From Roseobacter sp. (GTDB lineage Bacteria > Pseudomonadota > Alphaproteobacteria > Rhodobacterales > Rhodobacteraceae), in the NCBI RefSeq assembly GCF_024639605.1, contig NZ_JAHEHZ010000001.1, positions 881 through 64,880 of the forward strand: 64,000 nucleotides of DNA. Direction: 5' to 3'. Of the stretch, positions 1,136-54,980 are shown piece after piece. The first letter of the stretch is position 1; each line of letters begins with the position of its first letter. Both the position numbers and the translations under genes were made by a program. The notes beneath the pieces are model-generated. The model worked only from the letters and a program-made list of their open reading frames with translations. It did no database searches and was not told where the DNA came from.

Positions 1136-1150
1136 AACCCGTCCCGCCCT

Positions 1151-2663: not shown

Positions 2664-2773
2664 GGCTTTCATTTAGGCGAGGAATGCCCGCGCTGCAACA
2701 CACAGAGCGCAACGGCCCCTTGCAGAGGAGCACAAACCGGTTAGCTATGCAGCATCATGTTCAGGAGAAAACG

Positions 2774-3970: not shown

Positions 3971-4328
3971 GTTCGGCCTGTCGTCCGTCGGCGATCAGGC
4001 CAACGGGCGTATCGTCGGGAAGTTCGAAATCGAGTGCGGCTTTTCCCGTGACAGCGGTGGCGCGTTTGAACTCGTACTGCATCTCGCCCGCTTCTTCTTC
4101 GGCGGCGACGATCAGACACTGAAAAAGATGGACGCTCCCGTCGTAAAGATCGACGAAGCCGCGAAGCGAAGGGCCCCCGGCCTGCGTCGTGAAGCCGGAT
4201 TTCCACATACGCAGCACGGGCGTCAGTTCTCCGGCCACATCTACCCTCAGACGGGTGGATTTGCGCAAAGCCGCAAGGCGCGCCTCATTCAGACCGTCCT
4301 GAATTTCTTTGGAAAAGATCGCTTCCAT
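3954..4328 (-). CDS. Hypothetical protein (~124 aa)
   Basis: ORF with plausible composition in the gap between two convergent or divergent genes; start moved to MEAIFS. Confidence 0.7.
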   Translation of the reverse strand: MEAIFSKEIQDGLNEARLAALRKSTRLRVDVAGELTPVLRMWKSGFTTQAGGPSLRGFVDLYDGSVHLFQCLIVAAEEEAGEMQYEFKRATAVTGKAALDFELPDDTPVGLIADGRQAEPTAGR

Positions 4329-7121: not shown

Positions 7122-8291
7122 ATGCGTCCTGCCTCACTCATCCTCGCCCTGACCCTTGCCACAGCCCCCCTTGCAGCCCAGGCCTGTGGCGGCTCGTTTT
7201 CCGCTTTCGTCGCGGATCTCGAGCGCGAGTCAGTGTCACGCGGACATGATCCGGCGGCGGCCAGACGTTTCTTTTCCGGGATCCGGCAAAGCCCTTCTGT
7301 GCTCAAAGCCGACCGCGCCCAGGGTGTCTTTCAGAAACCCTTTATCGATTTTGCCCGCAATCTCATCTCGACCTCCCGTCTGAAACAGGGTCAGGCCAAG
7401 AGCGGACAGTATGATGCAGTTTTCGACCGGATTGAGCGCAATTACGGAGTGAACCGCGGCGTACTGCTGGCCTTTTGGGCGTTCGAGACCGATTACGGAG
7501 GTTTTCAGGGTAATTTCAACACCGCCAACGCGCTGGTGACGCTGTCGCACGATTGCCGGCGGCCTGAGCTTTTCCGCCCCCAGGTCTTTGCCGCCCTCGA
7601 GCTTTACGAGCGCGGCGCTTTTGATCCGGCCACCACCACAGGCGCCTGGGCCGGTGAGATCGGCATGGTGCAGATGCTGCCCCGCGACATCATCGAAAGC
7701 GGTGTGGACGCTGACGGCGACGGTCGTGTCTCGCTGAAAACTTCCGCGCCGGATGCACTGACCTCCGGGGCCGCAATGCTGAGCAGCTTTGGCTGGCGGG
7801 CAGGTGAGCCATGGCTGCAGGAAGTGCGCGTGCCGGCCGGCATGGACTGGTCACAAAGTGGTGTCGACGTGGCAAAGCCGGTACGCGAGTGGGAAGCCAT
7901 GGGCGTTTCCGCACGCTCCGGGAACCTGTCCCGCGGGCTCACCGCGTCCCTCATCCTGCCACAGGGGCATAAGGGGCCGGCCTTTCTCGCGTATCCGAAT
8001 TTCAATGTCTATTTCGACTGGAACCAGAGCTTTACCTATGTGCTGACGGCCGCCTATTTCGCCACCCGGCTGGAAGGGGCACCGGTCTTTGACGCGCGCA
8101 CACCAGAGCCCGGCCTGTCTGGCGCAGACATGAAATCGTTGCAGCGCAAGCTTCAGGCGCGCGGCTATGACGTTGGAAAAATCGATGGCATCCTTGGCGC
8201 GGGGACCCGGGCCGCGGTGCAGAAAGAACAGGCCCGACTTGGTCTGCCGGCGGATGCCTGGCCCACACCTGCGCTGCTGGCGCGTCTCTGA
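7122..8291 (+). CDS. Lytic murein transglycosylase (MltB/SLT_2) with C-terminal peptidoglycan-binding domain
   Basis: Signal peptide, FWAFETDYG, GAWAGEIGMVQMLP, C-terminal GYDVGKIDGILGAGTRAAV. Confidence 0.92.
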   Translation: MRPASLILALTLATAPLAAQACGGSFSAFVADLERESVSRGHDPAAARRFFSGIRQSPSVLKADRAQGVFQKPFIDFARNLISTSRLKQGQAKSGQYDAVFDRIERNYGVNRGVLLAFWAFETDYGGFQGNFNTANALVTLSHDCRRPELFRPQVFAALELYERGAFDPATTTGAWAGEIGMVQMLPRDIIESGVDADGDGRVSLKTSAPDALTSGAAMLSSFGWRAGEPWLQEVRVPAGMDWSQSGVDVAKPVREWEAMGVSARSGNLSRGLTASLILPQGHKGPAFLAYPNFNVYFDWNQSFTYVLTAAYFATRLEGAPVFDARTPEPGLSGADMKSLQRKLQARGYDVGKIDGILGAGTRAAVQKEQARLGLPADAWPTPALLARL

Positions 8292-42200: not shown

Positions 42201-42689
42201 ATGGACGTCACAATCTTACTCGCTCAACTCGTTGCGACCGGGGCCATTGCGGCCTGGCTTTCGACCGGGCTGCGCGACAACCTTCTGCATCCGGCGCTGA
42301 ATGAGACCTATACAGCGGAAGTGTTCAGCATGGCCCGCATGCAAAGCGAATACCCCGAAGCCTTTGACATGGTCGCGCATCGCGCCATTACAAAACGCAG
42401 AACACAAAAGATTGCCTTCCGCGCGGTGGTCGCGGTCGAAGCGCTGGCCTGTATCCTGCTATGGGTCGGCGTTGTGGCGTTGCTCATGGCGATTGCGGGG
42501 ACGGCCGGGGCTGAAACGGCGCGCGTTCTGGCCCTGCTCGGGGCCACGGCGTTTACCGCCGTCTGGGCCGGGTTTCTTGTGGTCGGCAACTACTTTTACT
42601 ACTGGTTCTGCCACGAGGGTGCGCAGAATACGCACTATCAGATGACGCTCTGGGGCCTCGGCACCATGATCCTGATCAGTCTGCCGTGA
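42201..42689 (+). CDS. Membrane protein, DUF2165-like
   Basis: 4 TM helices; DN...N...V..M and F.VVG.YF..W pattern. Confidence 0.65.
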   Translation: MDVTILLAQLVATGAIAAWLSTGLRDNLLHPALNETYTAEVFSMARMQSEYPEAFDMVAHRAITKRRTQKIAFRAVVAVEALACILLWVGVVALLMAIAGTAGAETARVLALLGATAFTAVWAGFLVVGNYFYYWFCHEGAQNTHYQMTLWGLGTMILISLP

Positions 42690-43308
42690 ACCGGCCACCG
42701 CCCGCCGCCACCGCCGCGATCAGCGGTGCCGGCACCTGCCCGGTCTGCACGGAAATCTGAGCGCAAAGTGCCCGGGCACCGGTTTCATCTGCAAGCTCAA
42801 AAAGGCGCGGCATGCCCGCAGAACTGCAGGCATCATCAATGTCTGTGATCCGGCATCTCTCCTGCGTCACGATCCGGGCGGCTGCATTTGTCAGCCCCGC
42901 AATCAGGTAAGACGCCAGCGCCCCCGCAGCCGGATCGACGCGCGTAATGCCGGCAAAACGCGCTTCTTCGCGCAACAGGTCTTCGACGAGCGGGTCAATG
43001 ACCAGACCCCCGCCGCCCGGGTAGCGGTACCAGCCAACTGCGACGCTGCGCCCCAGGCGCCCCTCAGCAACCATACGCACAAGCACCGGATTGGTCTGCT
43101 GCACCGGCGTGACCGCATTGCGGCTGGCGCGGGCGAGTTCCGGTTCCAGACCGTCGTTATCCCAGGCCTCGCAGACGCCGGTGGCAAAGCCCGCGTCCAG
43201 CATTGCTTCATCCAGTTCCCAGGGGTTGGCAAAGGTCAGCAGAAGGTGCTGAGCAAGCTCGCGCAGGGCGGCGGTCAGCGCATCTGCCAGATCAGGTGCC
43301 GGATTCAT
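42676..43308 (-). CDS. 3-hydroxyacyl-CoA dehydrogenase C-terminal-domain-only protein
   Basis: MVAEGRLGRSVAVGWYRY (cf. GxLGxKxGxGFY) and a second ID.A...G.P repeat; no GxGxxG NAD-binding domain. Confidence 0.75.
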   Translation of the reverse strand: MNPAPDLADALTAALRELAQHLLLTFANPWELDEAMLDAGFATGVCEAWDNDGLEPELARASRNAVTPVQQTNPVLVRMVAEGRLGRSVAVGWYRYPGGGGLVIDPLVEDLLREEARFAGITRVDPAAGALASYLIAGLTNAAARIVTQERCRITDIDDACSSAGMPRLFELADETGARALCAQISVQTGQVPAPLIAAVAAGGGRFTAD

Positions 43309-44195
43309 GCACCGTGCACTTCCAGAAACCGTTTAGAGGCAATAACTGCCAGCAGATCGTTCAGCGAGGACGACACCGTCCGGTTAGACGTGTTCACCTG
43401 CGCGCCGGCTTTTTCATAGGCCGGCGTGCGTGCTTCCAGCAGCCCGCGCAGCTGTTGCATGGCTGCCGGATTGCCCTCCATGGGGCGCAGATCACCCTGT
43501 TCGCGGACCCGTTGCATATGTTCTGCCGGCGATGTTCTGATCCAGATTGTATGAAACCGCTCGATCAGCCGGGCATAGGTCTGCTCTCCCGCGACGATGC
43601 CTCCTGCGACGGCAAGGATCATGCGGTCATGGCGTTCAATGACGCGGGCCAGTGCCTCGGCCTCAAGGGAGCGATATCCGTCCTCACCATAGAGGGCCAT
43701 CACCTCGGACAGCGGCATGCCCGTCTGCGTCTCGATCTCTGAGTTCAGCTCGACAAACGGCAGGCCCAGGGTCTCGCCGGCAAGTTTACCAAGGGTGGAT
43801 TTTCCCGCGCCTCTGAGCCCTGTCAGGCAGATACGGTTTGCCCGCAGGGCTGCAGGGTTTTGAACGGCCAGAACGCGGCGCACCTCGTCCTGTACCGAGG
43901 CAGGGGCCTGGCGGTAGAGAGTCACCACCCGTTGCAGGTCGCTGTCCCAGGCCGCAGTTTCCGACATCAGCGCTTCGATACGCAGATCAAGTGCTGTGGC
44001 GATGCGTTGCAGCAAAGCGATCGAGATATTGCCTTCGCCGGCCTCAAGCTGGGCAAGATACCGCGGCGAAACACCGGACAGCTCAGACAGTTCGCGACGC
44101 GGCATGCCTTTTGACTTGCGCGCTTCGCGCACACGGGCCGCAACGCGGGCGATCAGCAAAGCAGCCGTATCAGCTACAGCGGGACTGTCTTTCAT
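43305..44195 (-). CDS. boxR: BzdR/BoxR-type regulator (XRE HTH plus shikimate-kinase-like domain)
   Basis: LSELSGVSPRYLAQLEAGEGNISI HTH; ICLTGLRGAGKSTLG P-loop. Confidence 0.92.
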   Translation of the reverse strand: MKDSPAVADTAALLIARVAARVREARKSKGMPRRELSELSGVSPRYLAQLEAGEGNISIALLQRIATALDLRIEALMSETAAWDSDLQRVVTLYRQAPASVQDEVRRVLAVQNPAALRANRICLTGLRGAGKSTLGKLAGETLGLPFVELNSEIETQTGMPLSEVMALYGEDGYRSLEAEALARVIERHDRMILAVAGGIVAGEQTYARLIERFHTIWIRTSPAEHMQRVREQGDLRPMEGNPAAMQQLRGLLEARTPAYEKAGAQVNTSNRTVSSSLNDLLAVIASKRFLEVHGA

Positions 44196-44302: not shown

Positions 44303-45499
44303 TCAGTAGGTCTCGACATGGTACTGGCCGGCCTCGCGCAGGCTGTCGCGCAGGTTCGGCCATGACAGGCCCAGACCCGCCGCAATATCGCTGAGTGCAT
44401 CATCCACCCCGACTTCCATTGCGCGCAACCCGCAGACGTAGATGTGCAGTTTGTCGCGCGTCAGCAGGTCCGCAATGTGACCCGACTGTTCGCGCAGCTT
44501 ATCCTGCACATACTGCTTGGGGCTGCCGTCTTCGCGGCTGAAGGCGAACTCTTTGCGCAGGAAGCTGTCAGGTACTTTCTTGAGCGGTCCGAAGTAAGGC
44601 AGGTCGCGCGGGCTGCGCGCACCGAAAACCAGCGTCATGCTGTCGCTTGCCGAAGGCGTCTCGCGCTGGCGTCGCATGGTGAATCCGCGGAAAGGTGCCG
44701 ACCCGGTGCCGGTACAGATCATCAGCAGATGCGCCTCCGGATCAGAGGGCATCAGAAAGGTCGACCCGAAAGGCCCGGTCAGTTGCACCTCGTCGCCCCT
44801 GCCCAGGTCGCAGACGTAGCCGGAGCAGACGCCGCCCTCTTCGCGTTTCACCGTCAGGGAGATATTGTTGAACCCCGGTCGCTCCCCGTCGCGCGGGCTT
44901 GAGACCGAATAGAGCCTTGGCAGGTGCGGTCTGCCCTCCGCATCCGTACCAGGCGGAATAACCCCCACACTCTGGCCTTCCAGCACCGGAAAGGGCAGCC
45001 CTGCCAGATCCAGAATGATGTGGCGAACGTCTCCCTCGCTGCCGGCATCTGTCAGCCGGTAGTTGCCCTGCACAACAGCCCGCGCAGGTTTACCGGTGTT
45101 ATAGAGGTTAATGGTGGGCTTTGTTGCTGAAGCGGGCGCGCGCGATTTGCCGCCTGCCCCTTTGTGCGCATCCGCGAGCAGAGCGGCAATGGCCTCGTCA
45201 TGTGCTTCGTTGCCGTCGCTGTCCGGATGCGCGTCAAGGCTGATGTCTTCCTGATCGGGGAGCTCTTCAAAGCCGTATTGCTCATCAAGGGTATAAGGTG
45301 TGTCGACGACGCGCCATTCATCAATTGATCCGGTCGGGCAGACCGGGATGCAGTCCATACAGAAGTTGCATTTATCGGGATCGACAACGACATTGTTGTC
45401 ATCATGCTCGATCGCGCCGATCGGGCAGGTCATCTCGCAGGTGTAACAGCGGATGCAGATTTCAGGGTCGATAAGGTGTTGCTTTACGGGTTGGTTCAT
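44303..45499 (-). CDS. boxA: Benzoyl-CoA 2,3-epoxidase reductase subunit
   Basis: KQHLIDPEICIRCYTCEMTCP and CNFCMDCIPVCP ferredoxin motifs; PRLYSVSSPRDG, MICTGTGSAPF, YVCG, VETY FNR motifs. Confidence 0.95.
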   Translation of the reverse strand: MNQPVKQHLIDPEICIRCYTCEMTCPIGAIEHDDNNVVVDPDKCNFCMDCIPVCPTGSIDEWRVVDTPYTLDEQYGFEELPDQEDISLDAHPDSDGNEAHDEAIAALLADAHKGAGGKSRAPASATKPTINLYNTGKPARAVVQGNYRLTDAGSEGDVRHIILDLAGLPFPVLEGQSVGVIPPGTDAEGRPHLPRLYSVSSPRDGERPGFNNISLTVKREEGGVCSGYVCDLGRGDEVQLTGPFGSTFLMPSDPEAHLLMICTGTGSAPFRGFTMRRQRETPSASDSMTLVFGARSPRDLPYFGPLKKVPDSFLRKEFAFSREDGSPKQYVQDKLREQSGHIADLLTRDKLHIYVCGLRAMEVGVDDALSDIAAGLGLSWPNLRDSLREAGQYHVETY

Positions 45500-45633
45500 C
45501 CGGCTCCGACGGACCGGTGCAACACAGTATCGGGAACGAATATCATATCGAGAAGCGCGGAACACATGCCTTTGCAGTCTTTGCAACCGATGCAAATCGC
45601 GCTGGATTTTGTGCCTGAATTCTGTGTCTGCAT
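45496..45633 (-). CDS. 45-aa Cys-motif small protein MQTQNSGTKSSAICIGCKDCKGMCSALLDMIFVPDTVLHRSVGAG
   Basis: Hand-translated; AAGGAG RBS at 45643-45648; CxxCxxCxxxC; TGA overlaps the boxA ATG (ATGA). Confidence 0.8.
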   Translation of the reverse strand: MQTQNSGTKSSAICIGCKDCKGMCSALLDMIFVPDTVLHRSVGAG

Positions 45634-45727
45634 GGGTCCGGTCTCCTTCTTAAGGGTCAAGGTCACGGGGGTGAGGCGTGACGCAGGCCAGTATCTTAGA
45701 GGCCCGCGCCGGGTTCTTTGATCTGGA

Positions 45728-47179
45728 TCAAGCCATGTGGAGTTTCACATATTCGAAATCACCGGGCTTGTTGTCGATGCCCACCTTGGGTGCTGCAATC
45801 CAGGAAGCGTATTTTCCCGGCTCGAAACAGGGCACCATCAGAGACTGGATAAAATCTCCGTCGGCCTTTGTCGGCAACCATTCAGCGCGGCGTTTCTCCC
45901 ATTCCTCTGACGGGATGATATTGCCATCAGGATCAACGCAAACGCTTGAAAAGACGCCGATCTGGCGGTGGAAGCCTTCGTGTGGCAGTTTCAGTTCAAA
46001 TTCCACACCTGCGCGGGCAATCGCCTTGTTCCAGCGGCCGACACCACCTGCGGCATCGCGCACATAATCATCGCGCAGCCGCATGTTGATCGCCGTCAGC
46101 GCCGGCACGTCTTCGGTCAGGATCTTACCGTCCCTGATAGAGGTTACCGCATAGGTGTCATTCTGCAGTTTGTGATCATCATCGATCCTGAGTTCCATAT
46201 ACCGGCCCTTGATCCCTGCGTTGAAGGCATTGGCGGCATTGGTCGAGACCTCCTGCCCAAAAAGATCGAGGCTCAGCGTGTAATGCAGGTTGAGTTTTTT
46301 CTGGATCGTCGGCAGGTCAATCACACCCAGATCGCGGATTTTGTTGATGTCATAAGGATCGGTGATGCCGTTCGCATTCATCGCCTCCAGGGTCGCCTGA
46401 ATGGTGCGCCCGACACCGGTCTCGCCGACGAACATGTGGTGCGCCTCTTCGGTCAGCATGAAACGGCAGGTGCGGCTCAGCGGGTCAAAGCCGGACTGCG
46501 CGAGGCTCTCAAGCTGCATCTTGCCATCACGGTCTGTGAAATAGGTGAACATAAAAAACGACAGCCAGTCAGGGGTTTCCTCGTTGAAGGCGCCCAGCAT
46601 GCGCGGCGCTTCTTCGGAGCCCGACGAGCGGACCAGCAGATCGTCGGCCTCTTCACGCCCGTCACGACCAAAGTATTTCTGCAACAGATAGACCATCGCC
46701 CAGAGATGGCGGCCCTCTTCGACGTTCACCTGAAAAAGGTTGCGCATGTCATAAAGCGAGGGCGCGGTGAGACCGAGGAACCGTTGCTGTTCAACAGAGC
46801 CCGGTTCGGTGTCGCCCTGAATGACGATAAGGCGTTTGAGCATATTGCGGTACTCGCCCGGCACCTCCTGCCAGGCAGCTTCGCCGACGTGTTCCCCCAT
46901 CGGAATTTTGCGGTCCTCCACCGCCGGCGCCAGCAGCACGCCCCAGCGATATTCGGGCATTTTCACATAGTCGAACTTGGCCCAGCCTTTGGGGTCAACC
47001 GAGACCGCCGTGCGCAGATAGACCATGCTGTCCTGAAAATTCTGCGGGATCAGATCGTTCCACCAGTTAATGTACCCCGGATGCCATTTCTCGAGCGCTT
47101 TCAGAACCTTGCGATCTGAGCTCAGCCCCACGTTGTTGGGGATCTGACTGTCATAGCTTACGTTGATCAGGTCTGCCAT
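45728..47179 (-). CDS. boxB: Benzoyl-CoA 2,3-epoxidase oxygenase subunit (di-iron)
   Basis: IPNNVGL, QGDTEPGSVEQQ, VNVEEGRHLW, EEAHH di-iron motifs; GGAG RBS. Confidence 0.96.
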   Translation of the reverse strand: MADLINVSYDSQIPNNVGLSSDRKVLKALEKWHPGYINWWNDLIPQNFQDSMVYLRTAVSVDPKGWAKFDYVKMPEYRWGVLLAPAVEDRKIPMGEHVGEAAWQEVPGEYRNMLKRLIVIQGDTEPGSVEQQRFLGLTAPSLYDMRNLFQVNVEEGRHLWAMVYLLQKYFGRDGREEADDLLVRSSGSEEAPRMLGAFNEETPDWLSFFMFTYFTDRDGKMQLESLAQSGFDPLSRTCRFMLTEEAHHMFVGETGVGRTIQATLEAMNANGITDPYDINKIRDLGVIDLPTIQKKLNLHYTLSLDLFGQEVSTNAANAFNAGIKGRYMELRIDDDHKLQNDTYAVTSIRDGKILTEDVPALTAINMRLRDDYVRDAAGGVGRWNKAIARAGVEFELKLPHEGFHRQIGVFSSVCVDPDGNIIPSEEWEKRRAEWLPTKADGDFIQSLMVPCFEPGKYASWIAAPKVGIDNKPGDFEYVKLHMA

Positions 47180-47237: not shown

Positions 47238-48896
47238 TCACACCCGCTGTTTGTTGTAATCAGCCCTGAGACCGGTGCCATAGCGTTGCAGCGCACCCTC
47301 AGGACCAACCGCATTGGGTCTTTGAAAAATCCAGTTCTGCCAGGCGGTGAGGCGCCCGAAAATGCGCGTCTCCATCGTTTCGGGCCCGGCAAAGCGCAGG
47401 TTGGCCTCCATGCCCGTCAGCGCATCAGGGGAGAAGCTGGCACGCTCTTCCATGAAGAGGCGGACCTCGTCTTCCCAGTCGATATCGTCATAGGCATAAG
47501 TCACAAGGCCGAGTTCTTCCGCGTCAGGGGCCTCCAGCGTGTCTCCCACGCGCTGACGCAGCACCTCCACCTGTTCCGGGGTGGCCAGAAAGCGGGTCTC
47601 CAGACGGCTGAGCCCGTTGCCCATCGGGTAGCGCCCGAAGCTGGCCTCCGTCAGGGTGATCCCGGCCAGCGGCCGGTCATCGTCCTCGAATTCTTCCAGC
47701 ATCATATAGCTGCGATCGACGGCCCAGAGGATTTCCGCGAGCGGCCCTGCGAAACAGGAGCCGTGCTCAACCAGTGCCACCAGGCTGCGCGATGTCATGT
47801 CGATACGCTTGAGAACGCGTTTCCAGAGCGTCAGCACCTCATTGGCCAGCCAGTGGTCCGCGTTGTTGAGGAGCAGCGCCTCGTGAGCAACCACGGCCTG
47901 CGGATCGCCTTCGGTGCGAAATGCAATGAGGCCGATCTCGTCCTCATTGCTGCGCAGGTGCAGGATGGCGTCGTCCAGTTCGCGCGCGCACCTCAGCATC
48001 CAGGCCTGCGCGCCCTGTTCTGTGAACGCGTCCATATCGGCGACCGCGGCCTCACCGGGGCCGGTGATTGTGACGTCTGCCCGGCGTCCGGCGCGGTCAA
48101 CCGTCAAGGCGACGGTGGACCAGGTGACGCGGTCAGCGTCAAAGCTGCGCTCCAGCGGTGTCAGCCGGATGCCTTTCTGTGCGCCATGACCGGCGGCGTT
48201 CTGCGCCATTTCCCGGGCGCGGGTGGCGACCGTTTCATCAAAGGTCGCGTTCGGGATAAGCTCATCCACAAGACGCCATTTCAAAGCGCGGCTGCCTTTA
48301 ACGCCTTCCTCGACCGAGCAGAAAACATCCGCAAGATCACGGCGGACTTTGCGCTTGTCAGTGACCCGCGTCAGCCCGCCGGTTCCCGGCAGTACGGCCA
48401 GCAGCGGCACCTCGGGCAGCGCCACCGAAGAGGTGCTGTCATCGGTCAGCATGATATGATTGCAGGCCAGCGCCAGTTCATACCCGCCCCCCGCGCAGGC
48501 CCCCCGGATCGCGCAGATATAGTTCTGATTGCTGTCCTCAAGTGCCGCCTCCAGAGTGTTGCGCGTCTCATTGGTGAACTTGCAGAAGTTGACCTTGTGC
48601 GCATGGGCAGCGCCACCAAGCATGCGGATGTTCGCGCCCGCGCAGAACACTTTGTCTTTGGCAGACCGCATCACGACCACGCGCACCTCCGGATGCTCGA
48701 ACCGCATGCGCTGGACAATATCCGCAAGCTCGATATCCACGCCGAGGTCATAGGAATTGAGTTTCAGCTCATAGCCGTCAAAGAGCCCGCCTGCCTCATT
48801 GACATCCATCAGCAGTGTGGCCACCGGGCCGTCATACTCCACGCGCCAGTGACGCATGTTGTCCGGATCGGTCTGGAAATCAATTCTGTCAGCCAC
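47238..48896 (-). CDS. boxC: 2,3-epoxybenzoyl-CoA dihydrolase
   Basis: LKLNSYDLGVDIEL, FCAGANI, AGGGYELALAC, VPLLAVLPGTGG, ETRIFGRLTAWQNWIF. Confidence 0.96.
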   Translation of the reverse strand: MADRIDFQTDPDNMRHWRVEYDGPVATLLMDVNEAGGLFDGYELKLNSYDLGVDIELADIVQRMRFEHPEVRVVVMRSAKDKVFCAGANIRMLGGAAHAHKVNFCKFTNETRNTLEAALEDSNQNYICAIRGACAGGGYELALACNHIMLTDDSTSSVALPEVPLLAVLPGTGGLTRVTDKRKVRRDLADVFCSVEEGVKGSRALKWRLVDELIPNATFDETVATRAREMAQNAAGHGAQKGIRLTPLERSFDADRVTWSTVALTVDRAGRRADVTITGPGEAAVADMDAFTEQGAQAWMLRCARELDDAILHLRSNEDEIGLIAFRTEGDPQAVVAHEALLLNNADHWLANEVLTLWKRVLKRIDMTSRSLVALVEHGSCFAGPLAEILWAVDRSYMMLEEFEDDDRPLAGITLTEASFGRYPMGNGLSRLETRFLATPEQVEVLRQRVGDTLEAPDAEELGLVTYAYDDIDWEDEVRLFMEERASFSPDALTGMEANLRFAGPETMETRIFGRLTAWQNWIFQRPNAVGPEGALQRYGTGLRADYNKQRV

Positions 48897-48942: not shown

Positions 48943-49019
48943 TGAACTATACTTCACAGAAGAGTCCATAAATCCTCGGAGTTTACGCCGGTATTATCGT
49001 TATTTTGCACTATGGTGCA
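48943..49019. promoter_or_regulatory. Candidate BoxR operators upstream of boxC
   Basis: TGCA-CTATGG-TGCA (49006-49019) and TGAA-CTATAC-TTCA (48943-48956). Confidence 0.65.
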
Positions 49020-49470
49020 GTTCGCTCTGCGCGCGGGTTTCATGAACCCAGGCACGCAGGGATCTCGGGTCAAGCCCCAGTGGCTGCTGCCCGGAGGGGC
49101 ATCGCGCCAGATGCGCCTCCACCATATCGCACAGCCGGCGCGCTGCATGCGGGCGCAGCATCAGCAGTTTCAGGCGCGCATTGGCCAGCTGGATCAGCGC
49201 CTGCACAATATCGCGCTCCGGGCTGGGATCAGAAGTCTGCATCCAGACTGCTTCCAGGACTTCGTGGCACTCCCAGTAATAGCCCGCATCGAAATAGGCC
49301 CTGCCACAGCGCAGAGCGAAACTACCCGCCAGCACATCGCTGCCCGCCCTGTCCGGCACCGTCCGTCTGATTGCATCAAACCAGTCTTCCGGGTGACGCG
49401 GAGTGCGTCCGGGGATATAGGCGTGCGACGGCACCGGCACATCGCGGGGCAGATCACTCAGGCGCGACAT
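49000..49470 (-). CDS. DUF309-family protein
   Basis: FDAGYYWECHEVLEAVW...ALIQLA motif. Confidence 0.85.
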   Translation of the reverse strand: MSRLSDLPRDVPVPSHAYIPGRTPRHPEDWFDAIRRTVPDRAGSDVLAGSFALRCGRAYFDAGYYWECHEVLEAVWMQTSDPSPERDIVQALIQLANARLKLLMLRPHAARRLCDMVEAHLARCPSGQQPLGLDPRSLRAWVHETRAQSELHHSAK

Positions 49471-50281
49471 CGGCGTTTTCGAGACGTATCAACCTTTTGG
49501 TGAAGTCACCGACGGCCGCAAGCACCGCATCCGGTGCTTCGAGATGTGGCGCGTGACCGCACTTTTCAGGAAGAAGCGTTTCCAGCGGGGAATAGATGCG
49601 GGTCTCGATCTCATCAATCTGCGCGCGGCTGCCGTAGGGGTCCTGCCCGCCCTGAACGGCGAGCACAGGCACGCGCCAGTGATCGATGCAGTCCGCCACA
49701 TTCCACGTCTCAAAGCCCGGGTCGGTCCATGCATCATGCCAGCCGTTGAATGCCATCTCCGCATCGCTATGCCAGCGCGCGAGCTTTGCGTGCAGATCAC
49801 CGGTGCGAAAGGCTTCACCGGCCTTGCGGATCGCATCAAGCCCCTGCGGCTCAGTAAAAAAATGTGGCGCCACCAGGATAAGGCCACGCACCCGCATATC
49901 GCTGACGGATCCCGCGTAGATCGCAGCGATCGTAGCGCCATCGGAATGCCCCAGAAGGATTACGTCCCGAAGCCCCGCTGCATCCATCACCGGGCCCAGC
50001 ATTTCGACCGCTTCACGGGTCATGTAATCCGGCGGCCGCGGCAATGTCACACCTTCGGAGTTCCCATATCCTGCGCGCGACCAGACAAAGACACCCAGCC
50101 CGGTCTCAGCCGCCAGCCGCGCGGGGAAGTCCCGCCACAGTGCAGCACTGCCCAGGCCTTCGTGTAACAGCACAAGGGTCGGCGCCCCGGACCCGGGCGG
50201 CGGACCGTAGCAGGCATATTCCAGCGACTTACCGCCGGCTTTCAGGCGGCCATCCGGGTGTTCTGACCAGGCGTTGCTCAC
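49454..50281 (-). CDS. Alpha/beta hydrolase (lactonase/esterase-like, box-associated)
   Basis: LLHEGLGS, GHSDGATIA nucleophile elbow, DPYG, CGHAPH; GTG start overlapping the ligase stop. Confidence 0.88.
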   Translation of the reverse strand: MSNAWSEHPDGRLKAGGKSLEYACYGPPPGSGAPTLVLLHEGLGSAALWRDFPARLAAETGLGVFVWSRAGYGNSEGVTLPRPPDYMTREAVEMLGPVMDAAGLRDVILLGHSDGATIAAIYAGSVSDMRVRGLILVAPHFFTEPQGLDAIRKAGEAFRTGDLHAKLARWHSDAEMAFNGWHDAWTDPGFETWNVADCIDHWRVPVLAVQGGQDPYGSRAQIDEIETRIYSPLETLLPEKCGHAPHLEAPDAVLAAVGDFTKRLIRLENADVAPE

Positions 50282-51819
50282 TGATCGGCTCCGCGCAGCC
50301 GGAATCGCTGGATTTTGCCGGTGGCCGTTTTGGGCAGCTCGTCCACGATGCTTATCCAGCGCGGATACTTCCATTTACCGATGCGGTTTTTGACATGCTC
50401 TTTCAGGTGCTCTGCGATCTCGCTGTCGGCTGCATCCTGCAGCACGACAAAAGCCTTTGGCTTATCGAGACCATCTTCTCCGGCGGCGGCAACGACAGCG
50501 GCTTCGAGCACCGCCGGATGGCTGGCGAGCGCCTGTTCGACCTCGAAGGGCGAGACCCAGATACCGGACACCTTGAACATATCATCCGTGCGCCCGCAGT
50601 AGACATACCGTCCGTCCGTGCGACGTTCGTATTTATCACCGGTGCGGGTCCATTCGCCCTCGAATGTTGTGCGGGACTTTTTGCGCTGGTTCCAGTAACC
50701 CGCGGCCGCTGAAGCACCGCGCACCAGCAACTCTCCGATTTCATTATCACCGACCTCAGCGCCGGTCTCATCCACAAGGCGCATATCATACCCCGGCACG
50801 GCGATACCGGAGGTGCCGTAAACATTGTCCCCGGCACGGTTGCTGAGAAAGATATGCAACATTTCAGTGGATCCGACACCGTCGAGAATGGCGACGCCGG
50901 TATGCGCCTCCCACCGCATACCGACGTCTTCGGGAAGCGCCTCCCCTGCTGAGATTGCTCTGCGAAGCGGGGTGGCGGGCGTACCCGCTTTGTCCATCCC
51001 GGCCACCATTGCGGCGTAAAGCGTTGGCACGCCGCAAAAGACTGTCGGTTGCTCAGCCGTCATGACCGCGAGCATATCCGCCGGTGTGGGACGCCCCGCA
51101 AAAAGCACAGTTGTGGCCCCTGCGGCAAGCGGAAATGTCATCGCATTGCCCAGCCCGTAAGCAAAAAACAGTTTGGCCGCAGAGAAGACCACATCGTCTT
51201 CCCGCAGGCCGAGTATATGCGCGCCATATGTATCGGCGGTAGCCTTCATGCTGGAATGTACATGTGGCACGCCTTTGGGCTGTCCGGTCGAGCCTGAGGA
51301 GTAGAGCCAGAAGGCGACCTCATCATCGGAGGCAGGCTGGGTAGCCAGAGTCCCGGCATCCCTGACAAAGGCGTCAAAAGAGGTGGTGCCCGCGGGTGCG
51401 TGATCGCCGGTGACAACGATCACGCGCAGCGTGGGGTGGCCATCGATCAAAGGCGCGACCACATCAAAGAGCGCCTCAGAGACAAAAAGAACTGCGGCGC
51501 GGCAATCGCGCAGAATTGCATCGTAGACCGGCGCAGCAAGCAGGGTGTTGAGCGGCACGGGAATGACCCCGCTCTTCAGAGCTCCAAAAAAGATCTGCGG
51601 AAATTCGATGGTATCTGTCACCAGCATCGCGGCGCGTTCTTCGGGGCGCACACCGGCGCGACGCAATGCAGCCGCAACCTGTCCGGACCCCTCTGCCAGG
51701 CCCTGATAGGTCAGCGCTCTGCCGCTGCCGGCCTCGCGGTAAGCGACTTTGTCGCCCCGCCCTTCATCAAGGTGGCGGTCGACAAACCACGTGGCCCCGT
51801 TTCCGGCAACATTCGTCAC
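50278..51819 (-). CDS. Benzoate-CoA ligase
   Basis: FWLYSSGSTGQPKG, SAAKLFFAYGLGN, LDGVGSTEMLHIF, KTATGKIQRF. Confidence 0.93.
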   Translation of the reverse strand: MTNVAGNGATWFVDRHLDEGRGDKVAYREAGSGRALTYQGLAEGSGQVAAALRRAGVRPEERAAMLVTDTIEFPQIFFGALKSGVIPVPLNTLLAAPVYDAILRDCRAAVLFVSEALFDVVAPLIDGHPTLRVIVVTGDHAPAGTTSFDAFVRDAGTLATQPASDDEVAFWLYSSGSTGQPKGVPHVHSSMKATADTYGAHILGLREDDVVFSAAKLFFAYGLGNAMTFPLAAGATTVLFAGRPTPADMLAVMTAEQPTVFCGVPTLYAAMVAGMDKAGTPATPLRRAISAGEALPEDVGMRWEAHTGVAILDGVGSTEMLHIFLSNRAGDNVYGTSGIAVPGYDMRLVDETGAEVGDNEIGELLVRGASAAAGYWNQRKKSRTTFEGEWTRTGDKYERRTDGRYVYCGRTDDMFKVSGIWVSPFEVEQALASHPAVLEAAVVAAAGEDGLDKPKAFVVLQDAADSEIAEHLKEHVKNRIGKWKYPRWISIVDELPKTATGKIQRFRLRGADQ

Positions 51820-51938: not shown

Positions 51939-53294
51939 TCAACCCGGCAGGAGAAAGAGTGTAATAGCCGGGAACATGACCAGAATGATGACACGAAGGA
52001 TGTCCGATCCGACAAAGAACATCACAGCCTTGTAGGTCTCAGTCATCGGCGTTTCGCGATCCATCGCGTTGATGATGAAGAGGTTCATGCCCACAGGCGG
52101 GGTGATCAGCCCGACCTCGACCACGATCAGCACGAGGATGCCGAACCAGATTGCAACGTGTTCGGGCGACATGCCGAAATCCATCGCGGAGATCACCGGA
52201 AAGAAAATCGGCACAGTGAGCAGGATCATCGACAGGCTGTCCATCAGGCAGCCGAAGATCAGATAGAACACAAGAATAATCGAGAGCACCAGCCAGGGCG
52301 AGAAGCCCTGCGTCAGCACCCAGTCGGCCATGAACTGCGGCACGCCCGAGAGGGCCAGAAAACCGTTGTAGAATGCCGCCCCCAGCACGATGAAAAAGAT
52401 CATCGCCGTTGTGCGCGCGGTGCCCAGCAGGCTCTCGCGGAAGACCGGCCAGTTGAGGCTGCCGGAAAGGAGTGCGACGAGCCCCGTGCCCATCGCGCCG
52501 ATGGCCGAACCTTCGGTCGGCGTAAACCAGCCGAGATAGATGCCGCCCACGACGAGGGCAAAGATCACCAGCACCGGCCAGGTGGCCCCCAGCGCCTTCC
52601 AGCGGTCGGCCATGGGCACCGGCGGGCGCGTGCCGGCCGATTTCGGAAAGAGACGCACATAAACGGAGATTGTCAGCATATAGCCCAGGGCCGCGAGGAT
52701 GCCGGGAATGAAGGCGGCAAGGAAGAGCTTGGCGATGTTCTGCTCGGTGATGATCGCATAGATCACCAGAATGACAGAGGGAGGGATCAGGATGCCAAGC
52801 GTGCCGCCAGCGGCGAGGGTCGCTGTGGAAAAACCGCCCGAGTAGCCGTAGCGACGCAGTTCCGGCAGCGCCACGCGCGACATCGTGGCCGCTGTGGCAA
52901 GCGACGAACCGCATATCGCACCGAACCCCGCACAGGCGCCGACAGCCGCCATTGCAACGCCTCCGCGCCGATGGCCGAGAAAGCTCTCGGCAGCCTTAAA
53001 GAGCGCGCTGGAGAGCCCCGATAGGGTTGCGAACTGGCCCATCAGCAGAAACATCGGAATGATGCTGAGCGAGTAGCTGGAGAAGGTCGTGTATGTTTCA
53101 GATTTGAGTTTTGCCAGCAGCGGCACCGGGTTGCCGTTCATCGCATAATACCAGCCGCCAAAGCCACAGAGCAGCATGGCAAGGCCAATGGGCGCACGCA
53201 GAAAGATCATTCCCAGCAGCACGGCAAAGGACCAGAACCCCAGCTCAAGCCGGCTCATATCCGCAAAGGGCAGCAGATCGAGGAAAGCGCCCAT
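51939..53294 (-). CDS. dctM: TRAP transporter large permease DctM
   Basis: IPMFLLMG, GAICGSSLATAA, GGTLGILIPPS, GLITPPVGMNLF. Confidence 0.95.
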   Translation of the reverse strand: MGAFLDLLPFADMSRLELGFWSFAVLLGMIFLRAPIGLAMLLCGFGGWYYAMNGNPVPLLAKLKSETYTTFSSYSLSIIPMFLLMGQFATLSGLSSALFKAAESFLGHRRGGVAMAAVGACAGFGAICGSSLATAATMSRVALPELRRYGYSGGFSTATLAAGGTLGILIPPSVILVIYAIITEQNIAKLFLAAFIPGILAALGYMLTISVYVRLFPKSAGTRPPVPMADRWKALGATWPVLVIFALVVGGIYLGWFTPTEGSAIGAMGTGLVALLSGSLNWPVFRESLLGTARTTAMIFFIVLGAAFYNGFLALSGVPQFMADWVLTQGFSPWLVLSIILVFYLIFGCLMDSLSMILLTVPIFFPVISAMDFGMSPEHVAIWFGILVLIVVEVGLITPPVGMNLFIINAMDRETPMTETYKAVMFFVGSDILRVIILVMFPAITLFLLPG

Positions 53295-53300
53295 CCGACC

Positions 53301-53870
53301 CTATTCCTGCGTCATCAGTGTGCGGCCGGTAAGGCTTTCAGCGACACGCAGATACGCGCACCAGAGCGCCACAATGCAGGTCACGACCGAGGCTGCAAAG
53401 CTTGCTGAATAGGCCCACCAGACCGGGAACTGCAAAAAGAACGTCGTCTCGCCATTGCCGTAGTAGCGCTGCACACCGCCAAAAAGCTGCACTGAGATCA
53501 GGATCAGCGCCGCGGTCAGTGCCACCTCCCAGAAGGCCGCCAGTGCGCGGTTGGCGGCACCTGGCAGATGCGATGTGAAGATATCAACGGTCGCATGCGC
53601 CCGGCTGAGCTGGCAGACCGGGAAAAAGGAGAAGATCGCAAAGGCGATGCCGGCTTCCAGCAGTTCGTAGTTGCCGTTCACTTCGCCAATGCCGCTGTCG
53701 ATCAGCGTGCGGGCAAAGTCTCCCAGCGTGCGTTCGGCAAAATCGGAGTGCAGCCACTTGTTCGCAGAGCGCCCGATGATCGAGACCGTTGTCAGCAGGA
53801 CAAGGCCGGTCAGGACCAGACCGCCGATCACTGCGGTGGCGCGGGCAAGAAGTCTGACGGCCTGATGCAT
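53301..53870 (-). CDS. dctQ: TRAP transporter small permease DctQ
   Basis: 4 TM helices, HATVDIF motif, lies between dctP and dctM. Confidence 0.9.
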   Translation of the reverse strand: MHQAVRLLARATAVIGGLVLTGLVLLTTVSIIGRSANKWLHSDFAERTLGDFARTLIDSGIGEVNGNYELLEAGIAFAIFSFFPVCQLSRAHATVDIFTSHLPGAANRALAAFWEVALTAALILISVQLFGGVQRYYGNGETTFFLQFPVWWAYSASFAASVVTCIVALWCAYLRVAESLTGRTLMTQE

Positions 53871-53890
53871 AAAGCACTCCGGGAGGCATG

Positions 53891-53924
53891 AAAAAGCCCG
53901 CGGTGCGGGATGCGCACCGCGGGC
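53891..53924 (-). terminator. Hairpin plus U-tract between dctP and dctQ
   Basis: GCCCGCGGTGCG-GGATG-CGCACCGCGGGC preceded by AAAAA. Confidence 0.75.
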
Positions 53925-53939
53925 CGGCTGTCACCGGAG

Positions 53940-54980
53940 TTATTCGGTGTATTTATCGATGAGCATACGCGCTTCGTCGATCAGCGCCTGACCGTCGATA
54001 CCTTTTTCGTTCATCTCAGCGACCCATTCGTCATAAATCGGCTGAGCGACGGCCTTCCACTCGGCCGTTTCGGCTTCATCGAGTGTGACGATGTTGTTGC
54101 CGCGCGCCACAGCCGCTTCGCGGGCGGGCCCGTCGCTGTCGGCCTGGGTGCCACCGGCAAAGACTGAGAACTCAACGCCGGAGTTATCGTCGATCACCTT
54201 TTTCAGATCATCGGGCAGGCCCTCATACCGGTCTTTGTTCATCGCCAGCACAAAGGTCAGCACGTAAAGCGCATTGCCCGTAAACTCGGTGTGATTGGTC
54301 ACCAGCTCCGGGATTTTCAGTGCGGCGGTCACCTCCCATGGGATCGTCGTGCCGTCGATCACGCCTTTGGAGAGGCCCTCAGGCACAGCAGGTACCGGCA
54401 TGCCGACGGGTGTGGCGCCAACTTTGCTCAGGAGCGCATTGGCCAGCCGCGACCCGCCGCGGATTTTAAGTCCTTCCATATCCGCAGGTGAGCGCACCTC
54501 TTTGTTAGCGTGGATCAGGCCAGGACCATGCACCCAGGTGCCGAGAATGTGCACATCTTTGAATTCGGTGTCTTTCATGTGGGTCTCGAACATTTCCCAG
54601 TAGGCGCGCGAGGCGGCCCGGGCGTTCGTCATCATGAAGGGCAGCTCAAAAACCTCGGTGCTCGGATAGCGACCCGGCGTATAGCCGACGACTGTCCAGA
54701 CGATATCGGCAACTCCGTCGATTGCCTGGTCCATCAGCTCCGGCGGGCTGCCGCCAAGCTGCATGGACGGATAGCGGTCGACCTTGATGCGTCCGCCGCT
54801 GTCTTTCTCGACATTGTCGGCCCAGACATCCAGCACCAGCTTTGGCACATTGGCCTGCGGTGGCAGGAACTGGTGCATTGTGAGTGTGACTTCCTGCGCG
54901 GCCAGCGGTGCAGCACCGAAGCCTGTGGCAAGTGCGGCAGCACCCACCAGATTCAGAAAATTCTTGCGTGAGATTTTCAT
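53940..54980 (-). CDS. dctP: TRAP transporter substrate-binding protein DctP
   Basis: Signal peptide, YPSMQLGG, FELPF, DMEGLKIR, LSKGVIDG. Confidence 0.93.
   Translation of the reverse strand: MKISRKNFLNLVGAAALATGFGAAPLAAQEVTLTMHQFLPPQANVPKLVLDVWADNVEKDSGGRIKVDRYPSMQLGGSPPELMDQAIDGVADIVWTVVGYTPGRYPSTEVFELPFMMTNARAASRAYWEMFETHMKDTEFKDVHILGTWVHGPGLIHANKEVRSPADMEGLKIRGGSRLANALLSKVGATPVGMPVPAVPEGLSKGVIDGTTIPWEVTAALKIPELVTNHTEFTGNALYVLTFVLAMNKDRYEGLPDDLKKVIDDNSGVEFSVFAGGTQADSDGPAREAAVARGNNIVTLDEAETAEWKAVAQPIYDEWVAEMNEKGIDGQALIDEARMLIDKYTE

What the first reader, a model, noticed from the sequence alone, without database searches (positions are those of the whole stretch)
45496..45633. Unannotated 45-aa CxxCxxCxxxC peptide between boxB and boxA: a candidate extra component of the benzoyl-CoA epoxidase
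Seen: a small ORF below the track cut-off with a strong AAGGAG RBS, whose stop overlaps the boxA start (ATGA, translational coupling). It carries CIGCKDCKGMC, the spacing of a bacterial [4Fe-4S] ferredoxin motif, but with Ser rather than Pro after Cys4, followed by a short amphipathic helix. Known: the epoxidase is described as BoxA (FAD plus two 4Fe-4S clusters) and BoxB (di-iron), with no small subunit. Inference: the peptide may be a half-ferredoxin that dimerises, an electron shuttle or adaptor between BoxA and BoxB, or an Fe/Zn chaperone for cluster or di-iron loading.
Basis: partly seen in the sequence, partly recalled or inferred. Interest (0 to 1): 0.85.

Follow-up and report, generated by a model that had tools for sequence, protein, structure and literature searches.

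The report
Mini ferredoxin-like protein behind boxB
A real, conserved 45-residue four-cysteine protein sits between the two genes of the benzoyl-CoA epoxidase in marine Rhodobacteraceae, but it survives in relatives that lost that enzyme, so it looks like an optional half-ferredoxin-like helper, possibly induced at low oxygen, not a fixed third subunit.

Summary
The ORF is real: minus strand 45633..45496, 45 aa. It has an AAGGAG Shine-Dalgarno 9 nt upstream, an ATGA overlap with boxA, and the motif CIGCKDCKGMC.

It belongs to an uncharacterised family of 42-78-aa proteins (174 sequence clusters) seen only in Rhodobacteraceae. In a one-genome-per-genus sample, about 60 of 85 boxB-carrying genera have it directly after boxB. 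It is followed by boxA or, in some genera, by a flavodoxin.

Its only sequence resemblance is to single [4Fe-4S] ferredoxin motifs, and that is weak and below curated thresholds.

Two results weaken the "extra epoxidase subunit" reading. About 30% of Rhodobacteraceae box clusters lack it, as do all those examined from other alphaproteobacterial families. The gene also persists intact without boxA or boxB in 11 Roseobacter genomes and 8 other genera, with core dN/dS 0.21 against 0.22 in box clusters.

In the genus and a few related genera it carries a conserved TTGAT-N4-ATCAA (FNR/Dnr-type) site about 91 nt upstream. This is the only perfect such site in the window.

Best reading: a self-standing, probably low-oxygen-induced, half-ferredoxin-like Fe-S mini-protein that serves BoxB where present. 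Metal binding, translation and regulation are untested.

The parts
45496..45633 (-). Small protein gene (45 aa). Variable N-terminal 13 residues, a CxxCxxCxxxC core, then a predicted helix and the LP[DE]xxL tail.
   Evidence: Translation. Conserved in 18 of 18 boxB-carrying genomes of the genus and in 11 box-less ones. dN/dS 0.22 and 0.21. Family of 174 clusters.
45562..45594 (-). Codons for CIGCKDCKGMC (Cys14, 17, 20, 24), the ferredoxin-type motif.
   Evidence: In 216 family sequences selected for this Cys spacing, the Gly before Cys4 is kept in 215 and the Pro 10 residues after Cys4 in 215. The profile matches only ferredoxin motifs in the PDB.
45643..45648 (-). Shine-Dalgarno AAGGAG, 9 nt before the ATG.
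   Evidence: A GGAG-type site at the same spacing is present in all orthologues.
45496..45499 (-). ATGA overlap: the stop of the small gene and the start of boxA (translational coupling).
   Evidence: The same overlap is present in the 14 boxB-pep-boxA loci printed.
45718..45731 (.). Perfect palindrome TTGAT-N4-ATCAA (FNR/FnrL/Dnr-type site). Its centre is 91.5 nt upstream of the small gene's ATG, and it overlaps the boxB stop codon.
   Evidence: It is the only perfect site in 64 kb, against 0.04 expected. It is conserved at a fixed distance in nearly all loci of the genus, including the box-less ones. Consensus and use in a roseobacter: PMC5398030.
45728..47182 (-). boxB, the di-iron benzoyl-CoA 2,3-epoxidase subunit.
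   Evidence: TIGR03225, 895 bits against a cut-off of 499.
44303..45499 (-). boxA, the reductase (two Fer4 motifs plus an FNR-type FAD/NAD domain).
   Evidence: TIGR03224, 519 bits against a cut-off of 459; Pfam Fer4 and NAD_binding_1.
49000..49470 (-). DUF309 gene. It is a constant member of this cluster type and is retained next to the small gene in 9 box-less Roseobacter genomes.
   Evidence: PF03745, 68 bits. Synteny. Alignment.
47238..48896 (-). boxC, 2,3-epoxybenzoyl-CoA dihydrolase.
   Evidence: TIGR03222, 926 bits.
50278..51819 (-). Benzoate-CoA ligase.
   Evidence: TIGR02262, 723 bits.
51939..54980 (-). dctP-dctQ-dctM TRAP transporter at the head of the locus. It is the left flank shared with the box-less loci.
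   Evidence: Pfam DctP, DctQ and DctM. Synteny.
43305..44195 (-). boxR-type regulator (HTH_3 plus a shikimate-kinase-like domain).
   Evidence: NF006015, 348 bits; Pfam HTH_3 and SKI.

Best explanation
The ORF encodes a real small protein of a Rhodobacteraceae-specific family, built around one ferredoxin-type CxxCxxCxxxC motif.

I read it as a half-ferredoxin-like ('semidoxin'-like) iron-sulfur mini-protein. Three of its cysteines would hold a [4Fe-4S] or [3Fe-4S] cluster, and two chains probably pair up.

In box clusters it is made together with the partner encoded after boxB. It is translationally coupled to boxA here and precedes a flavodoxin elsewhere. There it would serve the di-iron enzyme BoxB as an optional auxiliary redox partner. 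It would either pass electrons to the di-iron centre or re-reduce an oxidised, inactive one.

In this genus it appears to be its own transcription unit behind an FNR/Dnr-type site, and so would be switched on when oxygen is scarce. That would explain why it stays useful, and is kept, in relatives that lost the epoxidase.

Shown:
- It is a protein-coding gene under selection.
- It is linked to boxB.
- It is not universal among box clusters.
- It persists without boxA and boxB.
- The FNR-type site is conserved.

Inferred:
- Fe-S binding.
- Dimerisation.
- Electron transfer to BoxB.
- Regulation by oxygen.
For: Gene reality:
- Shine-Dalgarno site, ATGA coupling and constant length.
- dN/dS 0.22 on the core, with the N-terminus nearly free to vary.
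- 174 clusters of 42-78 aa in an exhaustive HMM search.

Link to boxB:
- 18 of 18 boxB-carrying genomes of the genus have it after boxB.
- In 400 genera, the strict DNA motif lies 113-288 nt after boxB on the same strand in 49 of 85 boxB-carrying genomes. Eleven more variants raise this to about 60 of 85.
- All seven public or metagenome contigs looked up place it directly after boxB. An eighth, whose upstream gene is cut by the contig end, places it directly before boxA.

Redox slot: the position after boxB holds BoxA, or a flavodoxin (G300, L126, L140, L141). Variants of the small protein also precede the flavodoxin.

Ferredoxin likeness:
- The profile search of the PDB finds only [4Fe-4S] motifs (HycB4 at 2.6e-4; PsaC at 6e-4 to 5e-3).
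- 17 of 42 members weakly hit Fer4_2, and almost nothing else is hit.
- Designed half-ferredoxins dimerise, bind two clusters and work in vivo (PMC12648291).

Autonomy and oxygen:
- The only perfect TTGAT-N4-ATCAA site in the window lies 91.5 nt before the ATG.
- It is conserved at the same distance in box and box-less loci of the genus and in G640, G698 and G687.
- An FnrL-like regulator with an N-terminal Cys cluster is encoded in the same genome.
- FnrL/Dnr regulators use this site in a roseobacter (PMC5398030).
Against: - No direct evidence of translation, metal binding, dimerisation or contact with BoxB.
- No member reaches a Pfam Fer4 gathering score. The residue after Cys4 is not the canonical Pro.
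- AlphaFold2 models are of low confidence (pLDDT 57 and 60) and helical rather than beta-alpha-beta.
- BoxA already carries two [4Fe-4S] motifs, and BoxAB is described as working without any such protein (general knowledge of the Azoarcus enzyme), so the need for an extra carrier is unclear.
- Retention in box-less genomes shows that some function does not involve BoxB at all.
- The FNR-type site is absent from many other genera that carry the gene.
Confidence: 0.4

Rival explanations
1. Dedicated third subunit or adaptor of the BoxA-BoxB epoxidase. The peptide would dock between BoxA and BoxB and be needed for assembly of the complex or for electron hand-over.
For: It sits between boxB and boxA with an ATGA overlap in every box cluster of the genus, and in about 70% of boxB-carrying genera of the family.
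Against: It is absent from about 25 of 85 boxB-carrying genera of the family. Many of these have a boxB-boxA gap too short to hold it. It is also absent from the 29 best boxB loci of other genomes in the class-level sample. It is present next to a flavodoxin with no boxA. It is kept under equal purifying selection in genomes with neither boxA nor boxB.
Confidence: 0.1
2. Non-redox metal handling: a small Fe or Zn chaperone or maturation factor. It would load the BoxB di-iron site or the Fe-S clusters of its partners, in the way PaaD or DmpK-type accessory proteins are thought to work. It might act together with the neighbouring DUF309 protein.
For: Four invariant Cys. It co-occurs with DUF309 in this cluster type, and DUF309-pep adjacency is retained in 9 box-less Roseobacter genomes and in G612. 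DUF309 keeps conserved His, Glu and Cys positions.
Against: There is no homology to any known maturation factor. DUF309 occurs in box clusters without the peptide, and the peptide occurs without DUF309 (L079, L080, L104-L110). A BoxB-specific chaperone would not outlive BoxB.
Confidence: 0.17
3. Autonomous low-oxygen or redox-stress mini-protein whose function has nothing to do with BoxB, such as a sensor, a regulator partner or a general small electron carrier. Its place in the box cluster would then be a historical accident of where an FNR-driven gene landed.
For: It carries its own FNR/Dnr-type site, conserved with the gene after box loss. It is retained alone next to unrelated genes in G626, G687, G753 and G730. 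dN/dS is the same with and without box genes.
Against: About 60 of roughly 70 genera that carry it have it immediately after boxB, in widely diverged clusters. Most of those lack the FNR-type site. The box-less copies sit at remnants of former box loci. The ATGA coupling to boxA is conserved.
Confidence: 0.25
4. Not a functional protein: a chance ORF, or a cis-acting spacer or leader between boxB and boxA.
For: It is very short, falls below usual annotation cut-offs, and lacks expression data.
Against: There is amino-acid-level conservation with saturated synonymous change. Cys, Gly and Pro are invariant across 216 sequences. It is conserved in two kinds of genomic context. The chance expectation for the motif is 0.09 per window.
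Confidence: 0.02

Closest known systems
Half-ferredoxins ('semidoxins'), designed and a few natural ones (PMC12648291)
   Same: A very short chain with a single CxxCxxCxxxC cluster motif. The designed versions homodimerise, bind two [4Fe-4S] clusters and can carry electrons in vivo.
   Different: Natural candidates reported so far come from thermophilic anaerobes and have no known function. This family is in aerobic marine Rhodobacteraceae, sits in an oxygen-dependent pathway, and lacks the Pro after Cys4. Its cluster binding is untested.
Bacterial-type [4Fe-4S] ferredoxin motifs (Pfam Fer4 clan; for example PsaC, HycB)
   Same: CIGCxxCxxxC spacing with Gly after Cys1+1 and hydrophobic or acidic residues after Cys4 (compare PsaC CIGCTQCVRACPxDVLEM). 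These are the only significant profile matches.
   Different: It has one motif instead of two. No member passes a Pfam gathering score. It lacks the CP dipeptide and has a distinctive, nearly invariant LP[DE]xxL tail.
BoxA, the reductase of benzoyl-CoA epoxidase (TIGR03224)
   Same: It is encoded next to boxB, carries ferredoxin-type Cys motifs and presumably feeds the same di-iron enzyme.
   Different: BoxA is a 398-aa fusion of a two-cluster ferredoxin domain with an FAD/NADPH reductase. The peptide is not a copy of BoxA's ferredoxin domain (hhalign probability 2%).
YfaE of E. coli, a small [2Fe-2S] ferredoxin encoded beside the di-iron ribonucleotide reductase that re-reduces its cofactor (from my own knowledge, not tested here)
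   Same: A small Fe-S protein encoded beside a di-iron enzyme, dispensable for catalysis itself and proposed to maintain the metal centre. This is a model for how the peptide could work.
   Different: It has a different cluster type and fold (plant-type 2Fe-2S, 84 aa) and no sequence relationship.
PaaD and PaaB of the phenylacetyl-CoA epoxidase PaaABCE (from my own knowledge; review PMC4498308 listed but not read)
   Same: Small accessory proteins of the sister CoA-ester epoxidase, showing that such enzymes can have extra small components.
   Different: There is no homology. PaaB is a structural subunit present wherever PaaAC is, whereas this peptide is optional and outlives the enzyme.

Membership tests
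Bacterial-type ferredoxin (Pfam Fer4 clan) | Score above the curated gathering threshold of a Fer4 family model | tested here: not met
   Window protein: Fer4_2 at 12.3 bits against a 24.5 cut-off, E = 0.18. The best of 42 members has E = 0.0023 (Fer4_7); none is over threshold.
Bacterial-type ferredoxin (Pfam Fer4 clan) | CxxCxxCxxxC cysteine spacing | tested here: met
   CIGCKDCKGMC. The spacing is kept in 216 of 218 small family proteins collected. Three variants next to a flavodoxin have CxxxCxxCxxxC.
Bacterial-type ferredoxin (Pfam Fer4 clan) | Pro directly after the fourth Cys, and a second motif that completes both clusters | tested here: not met
   The residue after Cys4 is Ser here and mostly R, A, L or Q in the family. 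There is only one motif per chain.
Bacterial-type ferredoxin (Pfam Fer4 clan) | Binds an iron-sulfur cluster | not testable with these tools
   Needs anaerobic purification followed by UV-vis, EPR and metal analysis.
Half-ferredoxin / semidoxin (PMC12648291) | A short chain with exactly one [4Fe-4S]-type motif | tested here: met
   45 aa with one motif. Family members are 42-78 aa.
Half-ferredoxin / semidoxin (PMC12648291) | Beta-alpha-beta half-fold that homodimerises around two clusters | tested here: inconclusive
   Monomer AlphaFold2 models have pLDDT 57 and 60 and are mostly helical.
Component of benzoyl-CoA 2,3-epoxidase BoxAB | Encoded and co-expressed with boxA and boxB | tested here: met
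   It lies between boxB and boxA with an ATGA overlap. The same holds in 18 of 18 genomes of the genus.
Component of benzoyl-CoA 2,3-epoxidase BoxAB | Present wherever BoxAB is present | tested here: not met
   About 60 of 85 boxB-carrying genera of the family have it. In the class-level sample only the window's own locus, of the 30 best boxB loci, has it.
Component of benzoyl-CoA 2,3-epoxidase BoxAB | Lost or decaying when BoxAB is lost | tested here: not met
   It is intact with dN/dS 0.21 in box-less Roseobacter genomes, six of which form one clade in the DctM tree. No boxA or boxB is present there. Eight further box-less genera keep it.
Component of benzoyl-CoA 2,3-epoxidase BoxAB | Physical contact with BoxA or BoxB, and an effect on activity | not testable with these tools
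   Needs pull-down or co-purification and reconstituted assays. No natural fusion to BoxA or BoxB was found.
C4 zinc ribbon or zinc knuckle | Two CxxC pairs separated by a beta-hairpin or a longer spacer | tested here: not met
   The four Cys are contiguous within 11 residues. The only zinc-finger Pfam hit is one member at E = 0.05.
FNR/FnrL/Dnr regulon member | TTGAT-N4-ATCAA site at promoter distance upstream | tested here: met
   A perfect site at 45718-45731, 91.5 nt before the ATG and unique in the window. It is conserved at the same distance in the genus, box-less loci included.
FNR/FnrL/Dnr regulon member | Transcription depends on the regulator and on low oxygen | not testable with these tools
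Needs reporter fusions or RNA-seq of fnrL/dnr mutants.

The most novel reading that the evidence does not exclude
This is a natural, functioning half-ferredoxin in aerobic bacteria. A 45-60-residue chain would homodimerise around two [4Fe-4S] clusters, be induced at low oxygen, and feed or re-activate the di-iron epoxidase BoxB. That would make it a living example of the pre-duplication stage of ferredoxin evolution, with a defined partner, a defined pathway and a genetic handle.
Probability: 0.25. Interest if true: 0.8.

Novelty: new variant of a known kind. Interest (0 to 1): 0.6.

Why it matters
The aerobic benzoyl-CoA (box) pathway is described as needing only BoxA and BoxB for ring epoxidation. 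Here a third, very small gene accompanies boxB in most Rhodobacteraceae that have the pathway, which points to an unrecognised accessory function at the di-iron enzyme, possibly tied to low oxygen.

Single-motif 'half-ferredoxins' are also of interest as models of the earliest electron carriers. Natural ones have so far been reported only from thermophilic anaerobes, without any function (PMC12648291). A well-populated family in cultivable aerobic marine bacteria would make that question directly testable. It has a clear genomic partner, a predicted regulator site, and natural 'knock-out' backgrounds that lack the partner enzyme.

The repeated survival of this 140-bp gene after loss of the surrounding pathway is itself a small evolutionary puzzle.

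Tried and rejected
- **Structure.** Two AlphaFold2 runs with family alignments gave pLDDT 57 and 60. That is too poor for a fold search, so none was run.
- **Origin from BoxA.** A profile comparison with BoxA's own ferredoxin domain gave 2% probability. The peptide is not an evident duplicate of it.
- **Rosetta-stone fusions.** None found. P0058 (802 aa, ten repeats) is a spurious repeat protein. P0199 (581 aa, filed in the same 90% cluster as a family member) is a phosphoglucomutase-like sequence, a clustering artefact.
- **Curated families.** Pfam and NCBIfam give no family for the peptide.
- **Plasmids.** tblastn against plasmids found nothing.
- **Class-level HMM search.** It scored only 16 first-look candidates per genome, so I did not rely on it. 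I used direct inspection of loci and a DNA pattern with a reversed-pattern control instead.
- **boxB-pep spacer.** Its RNA fold is not exceptional (z = -1.5), and no sigma-70-like promoter or intrinsic terminator was found there.
- **TRAP transporter as obligate partner.** Considered because dctPQM-pep recurs in box-less genomes. Rejected because several distant box clusters and orphan copies have no TRAP genes nearby.
- **RiPP precursor.** Rejected: no maturase is nearby, and the conserved part is the Cys core and C-terminus, not a leader.
- **Literature.** Searches found nothing on DUF309 function or on a small gene in box clusters.
Full report
**What is there.** All relevant genes lie on the minus strand.
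- boxB ends at 45728.
- After a 94-nt spacer, an ORF runs from ATG 45633 to TGA 45496.
- boxA starts at 45499, so stop and start overlap as ATGA.

The ORF encodes MQTQNSGTKSSAICIGCKDCKGMCSALLDMIFVPDTVLHRSVGAG (45 aa). AAGGAG lies 9 nt before the ATG.

The neighbours are bona fide boxB (TIGR03225, 895 bits) and boxA (TIGR03224, 519 bits). The wider locus, in transcription order, is dctP, dctQ, dctM, benzoate-CoA ligase, alpha/beta-hydrolase, DUF309, boxC, boxB, the small gene, boxA, boxR and a truncated 3-hydroxyacyl-CoA dehydrogenase. A DUF2165 gene and a family-5 solute-binding protein gene converge on it from the other strand.

The window holds only three in-frame CxxCxxCxxxC motifs without a stop: two in BoxA and this one. 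Shuffles give 0.09.

**It is a real gene.** The genus is Roseobacter, going by the source names of homologues.
- All 18 genomes of the genus that carry boxB have the ORF between boxB and boxA. Seventeen are 45-47 aa; the divergent second cluster of G008 encodes a 54-aa form. All have a GGAG-type ribosome-binding site at the same spacing, and the 14 loci printed all show the ATGA overlap.
- Identity to the window protein falls to about 40%. The four Cys, two Gly, a Pro and the LP[DE]xxL tail stay fixed.
- Nei-Gojobori dN/dS on the core is 0.22, with synonymous differences near saturation (pS 0.60). The N-terminal 14 residues are much freer.
- An exhaustive profile search of 1.84 billion representative proteins finds 174 clusters at E <= 0.001, almost all 42-78 aa.
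- In 216 collected sequences with the canonical Cys spacing, the Gly before Cys4 is kept in 215 and the Pro 10 residues after Cys4 in 215.

**What it resembles.** No Pfam or NCBIfam model claims it.
- A family profile searched against all PDB sequences matches only [4Fe-4S] ferredoxin motifs: HycB4 at 2.6e-4, and many PsaC chains at 6e-4 to 5e-3.
- PsaC's CIGCTQCVRACPxDVLEM lines up with the family's CIGCtDCkGlCrdivELaflP.
- Seventeen of 42 members weakly hit Fer4_2, and none is over threshold.
- It is not an obvious copy of BoxA's own ferredoxin domain.
- It has one motif, not two, and no Pro after Cys4.
- Two AlphaFold2 models are of low confidence.

So it looks like half of a ferredoxin but fails the formal family tests, and metal binding is untested. 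Designed half-ferredoxins ('semidoxins') dimerise, bind two clusters and function in vivo. Natural ones are reported as rare, so far only from thermophilic anaerobes, and without known function (PMC12648291).

**How it is distributed.** Every public or metagenome contig I looked up for diverse family members shows a box context.
- Seven place the gene directly after boxB. Five of these are full clusters of the form ligase, hydrolase, DUF309, boxC, boxB, pep, boxA, thioesterase, boxR.
- L102 starts at boxB.
- L031 reads DUF309, boxB, pep, boxR.
- L029, whose upstream gene is cut by the contig end, places it directly before boxA.

In a sample of one genome per genus for 400 genera of the GTDB family:
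- A strict DNA pattern for the Cys core hits 67 genomes, against 9 for the reversed-pattern control.
- boxB is present in 85.
- In 49 of those the motif lies 113-288 nt after boxB on the same strand.
- Inspection of 34 of the remaining 36 adds seven variants with C[IL][DN]C and one divergent form.
- It also adds three CxxxCxxCxxxC variants that sit between boxB and a flavodoxin.
- Two degenerate copies were also seen.
- That gives about 60 of 85. The rest have boxB followed directly by boxA (start within 125-230 nt of the fetched stretch, too short a gap to hold the gene) or by a flavodoxin.

Outside the family I found none. Among the 30 best boxB loci of a 401-genome sample of the class, only the window's own has it. 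The gene is therefore a lineage-specific, optional companion of boxB rather than of boxA.

**The unexpected part: it outlives the enzyme.** Eleven Roseobacter genomes have no boxB and no boxA. They keep the small gene at the same chromosomal place, between the same dctPQM and DUF2165/solute-binding-protein flanks.
- Nine have dctPQM, DUF309, pep.
- Three loci have dctPQM, ligase, pep. One is the native locus of G008, which also holds a second, divergent full box cluster with its own copy.
- In a DctM tree, six of the DUF309-pep genomes form one clade (support 94/91) with long terminal branches. This fits one old loss followed by diversification.
- Core dN/dS in the box-less set is 0.21.

Eight further genera without boxB keep an intact copy.
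- G135, G698, G584 and G640 have it after dctPQM.
- G626 has it beside AlkZ-like and LacI genes.
- G687 has it after an amidohydrolase that elsewhere heads the box cluster.
- G753 and G730 have it in other surroundings.

A protein needed only for BoxAB would not behave like this.

**A conserved regulatory site.** Aligning the upstream regions shows a palindrome shared by box and box-less loci.
- In the window it is TTGATCCAGATCAA on the minus strand, at 45718-45731.
- It overlaps the boxB stop codon, and its centre is 91.5 nt before the small gene's ATG.
- It is the only perfect TTGAT-N4-ATCAA in 64 kb, against 0.04 expected. No further site appears when one mismatch is allowed.
- A site with at most two mismatches sits at the same distance in all but one locus of the genus, box-less ones included. 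It is also there in G640, G698, G687 and G135, but not in many other genera.
- In the box-less loci the sequence to the left of the palindrome is no longer boxB. The deletions therefore spared exactly the site plus the gene.
- TTGAT-N4-ATCAA is the FNR consensus, and FnrL/Dnr regulators use it in the roseobacter Dinoroseobacter shibae, for example 96.5 bp before the napD start (PMC5398030).
- The window's genome encodes a Crp/Fnr-family protein with an FnrL-like N-terminal Cys cluster.

Regulation by oxygen is an inference; no transcript data could be obtained.

**Interpretation.** Firmly shown:
- A selected protein-coding gene with a ferredoxin-like Cys core.
- Primary linkage to boxB, in the slot where electron donors are encoded.
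- Non-universality among box clusters.
- Independence from BoxAB for at least part of its function.

My best reading (confidence 0.4) is a half-ferredoxin-like Fe-S mini-protein, probably dimeric and, in this genus, induced at low oxygen. Where BoxB is present it would act as an auxiliary redox partner, delivering electrons or re-reducing the di-iron site, much as small ferredoxins maintain other di-iron enzymes. It would be general enough to be kept without BoxB.

Rivals:
- An autonomous low-oxygen protein unrelated to BoxB (0.25).
- A non-redox metal chaperone, possibly acting with DUF309 (0.17).
- A dedicated BoxAB subunit (0.10).
- No function (0.02).

**Earlier notes of this scan** describe two things in other genomes: an archaeal BoxB-like enzyme followed by an optional Cys-rich mini-protein, and a box cluster with a flavodoxin in place of boxA. 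The second matches what I saw in G300 and others. The first is a parallel that I did not test.

Noticed in passing
L071 (G300) 7518-7976; also L126, L140, L141, and L135, L137, L139: In several Rhodobacteraceae genera boxA is absent from the cluster. A flavodoxin of about 152 aa follows boxB, then a 4HBT thioesterase and boxR. In three of these a CxxxCxxCxxxC variant of the small protein sits between boxB and the flavodoxin.
   Followed up: partly
window 49000-49470 (-); G295, G277, G306, G085, G259: A DUF309 (PF03745) gene of unknown function is a constant member of this box-cluster type. It also occurs in box clusters of other alphaproteobacterial families that lack the small gene. It keeps conserved WECHEVLE, RLC and RC positions.
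   Followed up: partly
L103 7164-7508: In Carideicomes/Aquicoccus an extra 114-aa ORF without any Pfam hit lies between the small gene and boxA and overlaps both.
   Followed up: no
window 42676-43308 (-): A 210-aa ORF carries only a 3HCDH C-terminal domain. It looks like a truncated remnant of the 684-688-aa enoyl-CoA hydratase/3-hydroxyacyl-CoA dehydrogenase fusion that follows boxR in L028, L101 and L102.
   Followed up: no
L099/L081 and L100/L082 (G008): One Roseobacter genome has a reduced native locus (ligase, then pep). It also has a second, divergent complete box cluster (BoxB 85% identical) with its own 54-aa CIDC-type copy and its own TRAP genes, which looks like a horizontal re-acquisition.
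   Followed up: partly
L151 (G000:C79:72762-72995, about 8 kb beyond the window's right end): A Crp/Fnr-family regulator with an N-terminal CSDCPIRHRAVCAKC cluster (FnrL-like) is encoded on the same contig as the window.
   Followed up: no
L124 (G770) 114-299; L125 (G501) 135-386: Two genera have decayed copies after boxB. One is truncated right after the Cys motif, and the other keeps only two Cys.
   Followed up: no
L031 (metagenome contig) 588-4014: A contig reads DUF309, boxB, pep, boxR with no boxC or boxA in between. Its right flank (AlkZ-like, LacI) is the same as in the box-less dctPQM-pep loci of G135 and G698, so it may be an intermediate stage of cluster reduction.
   Followed up: no
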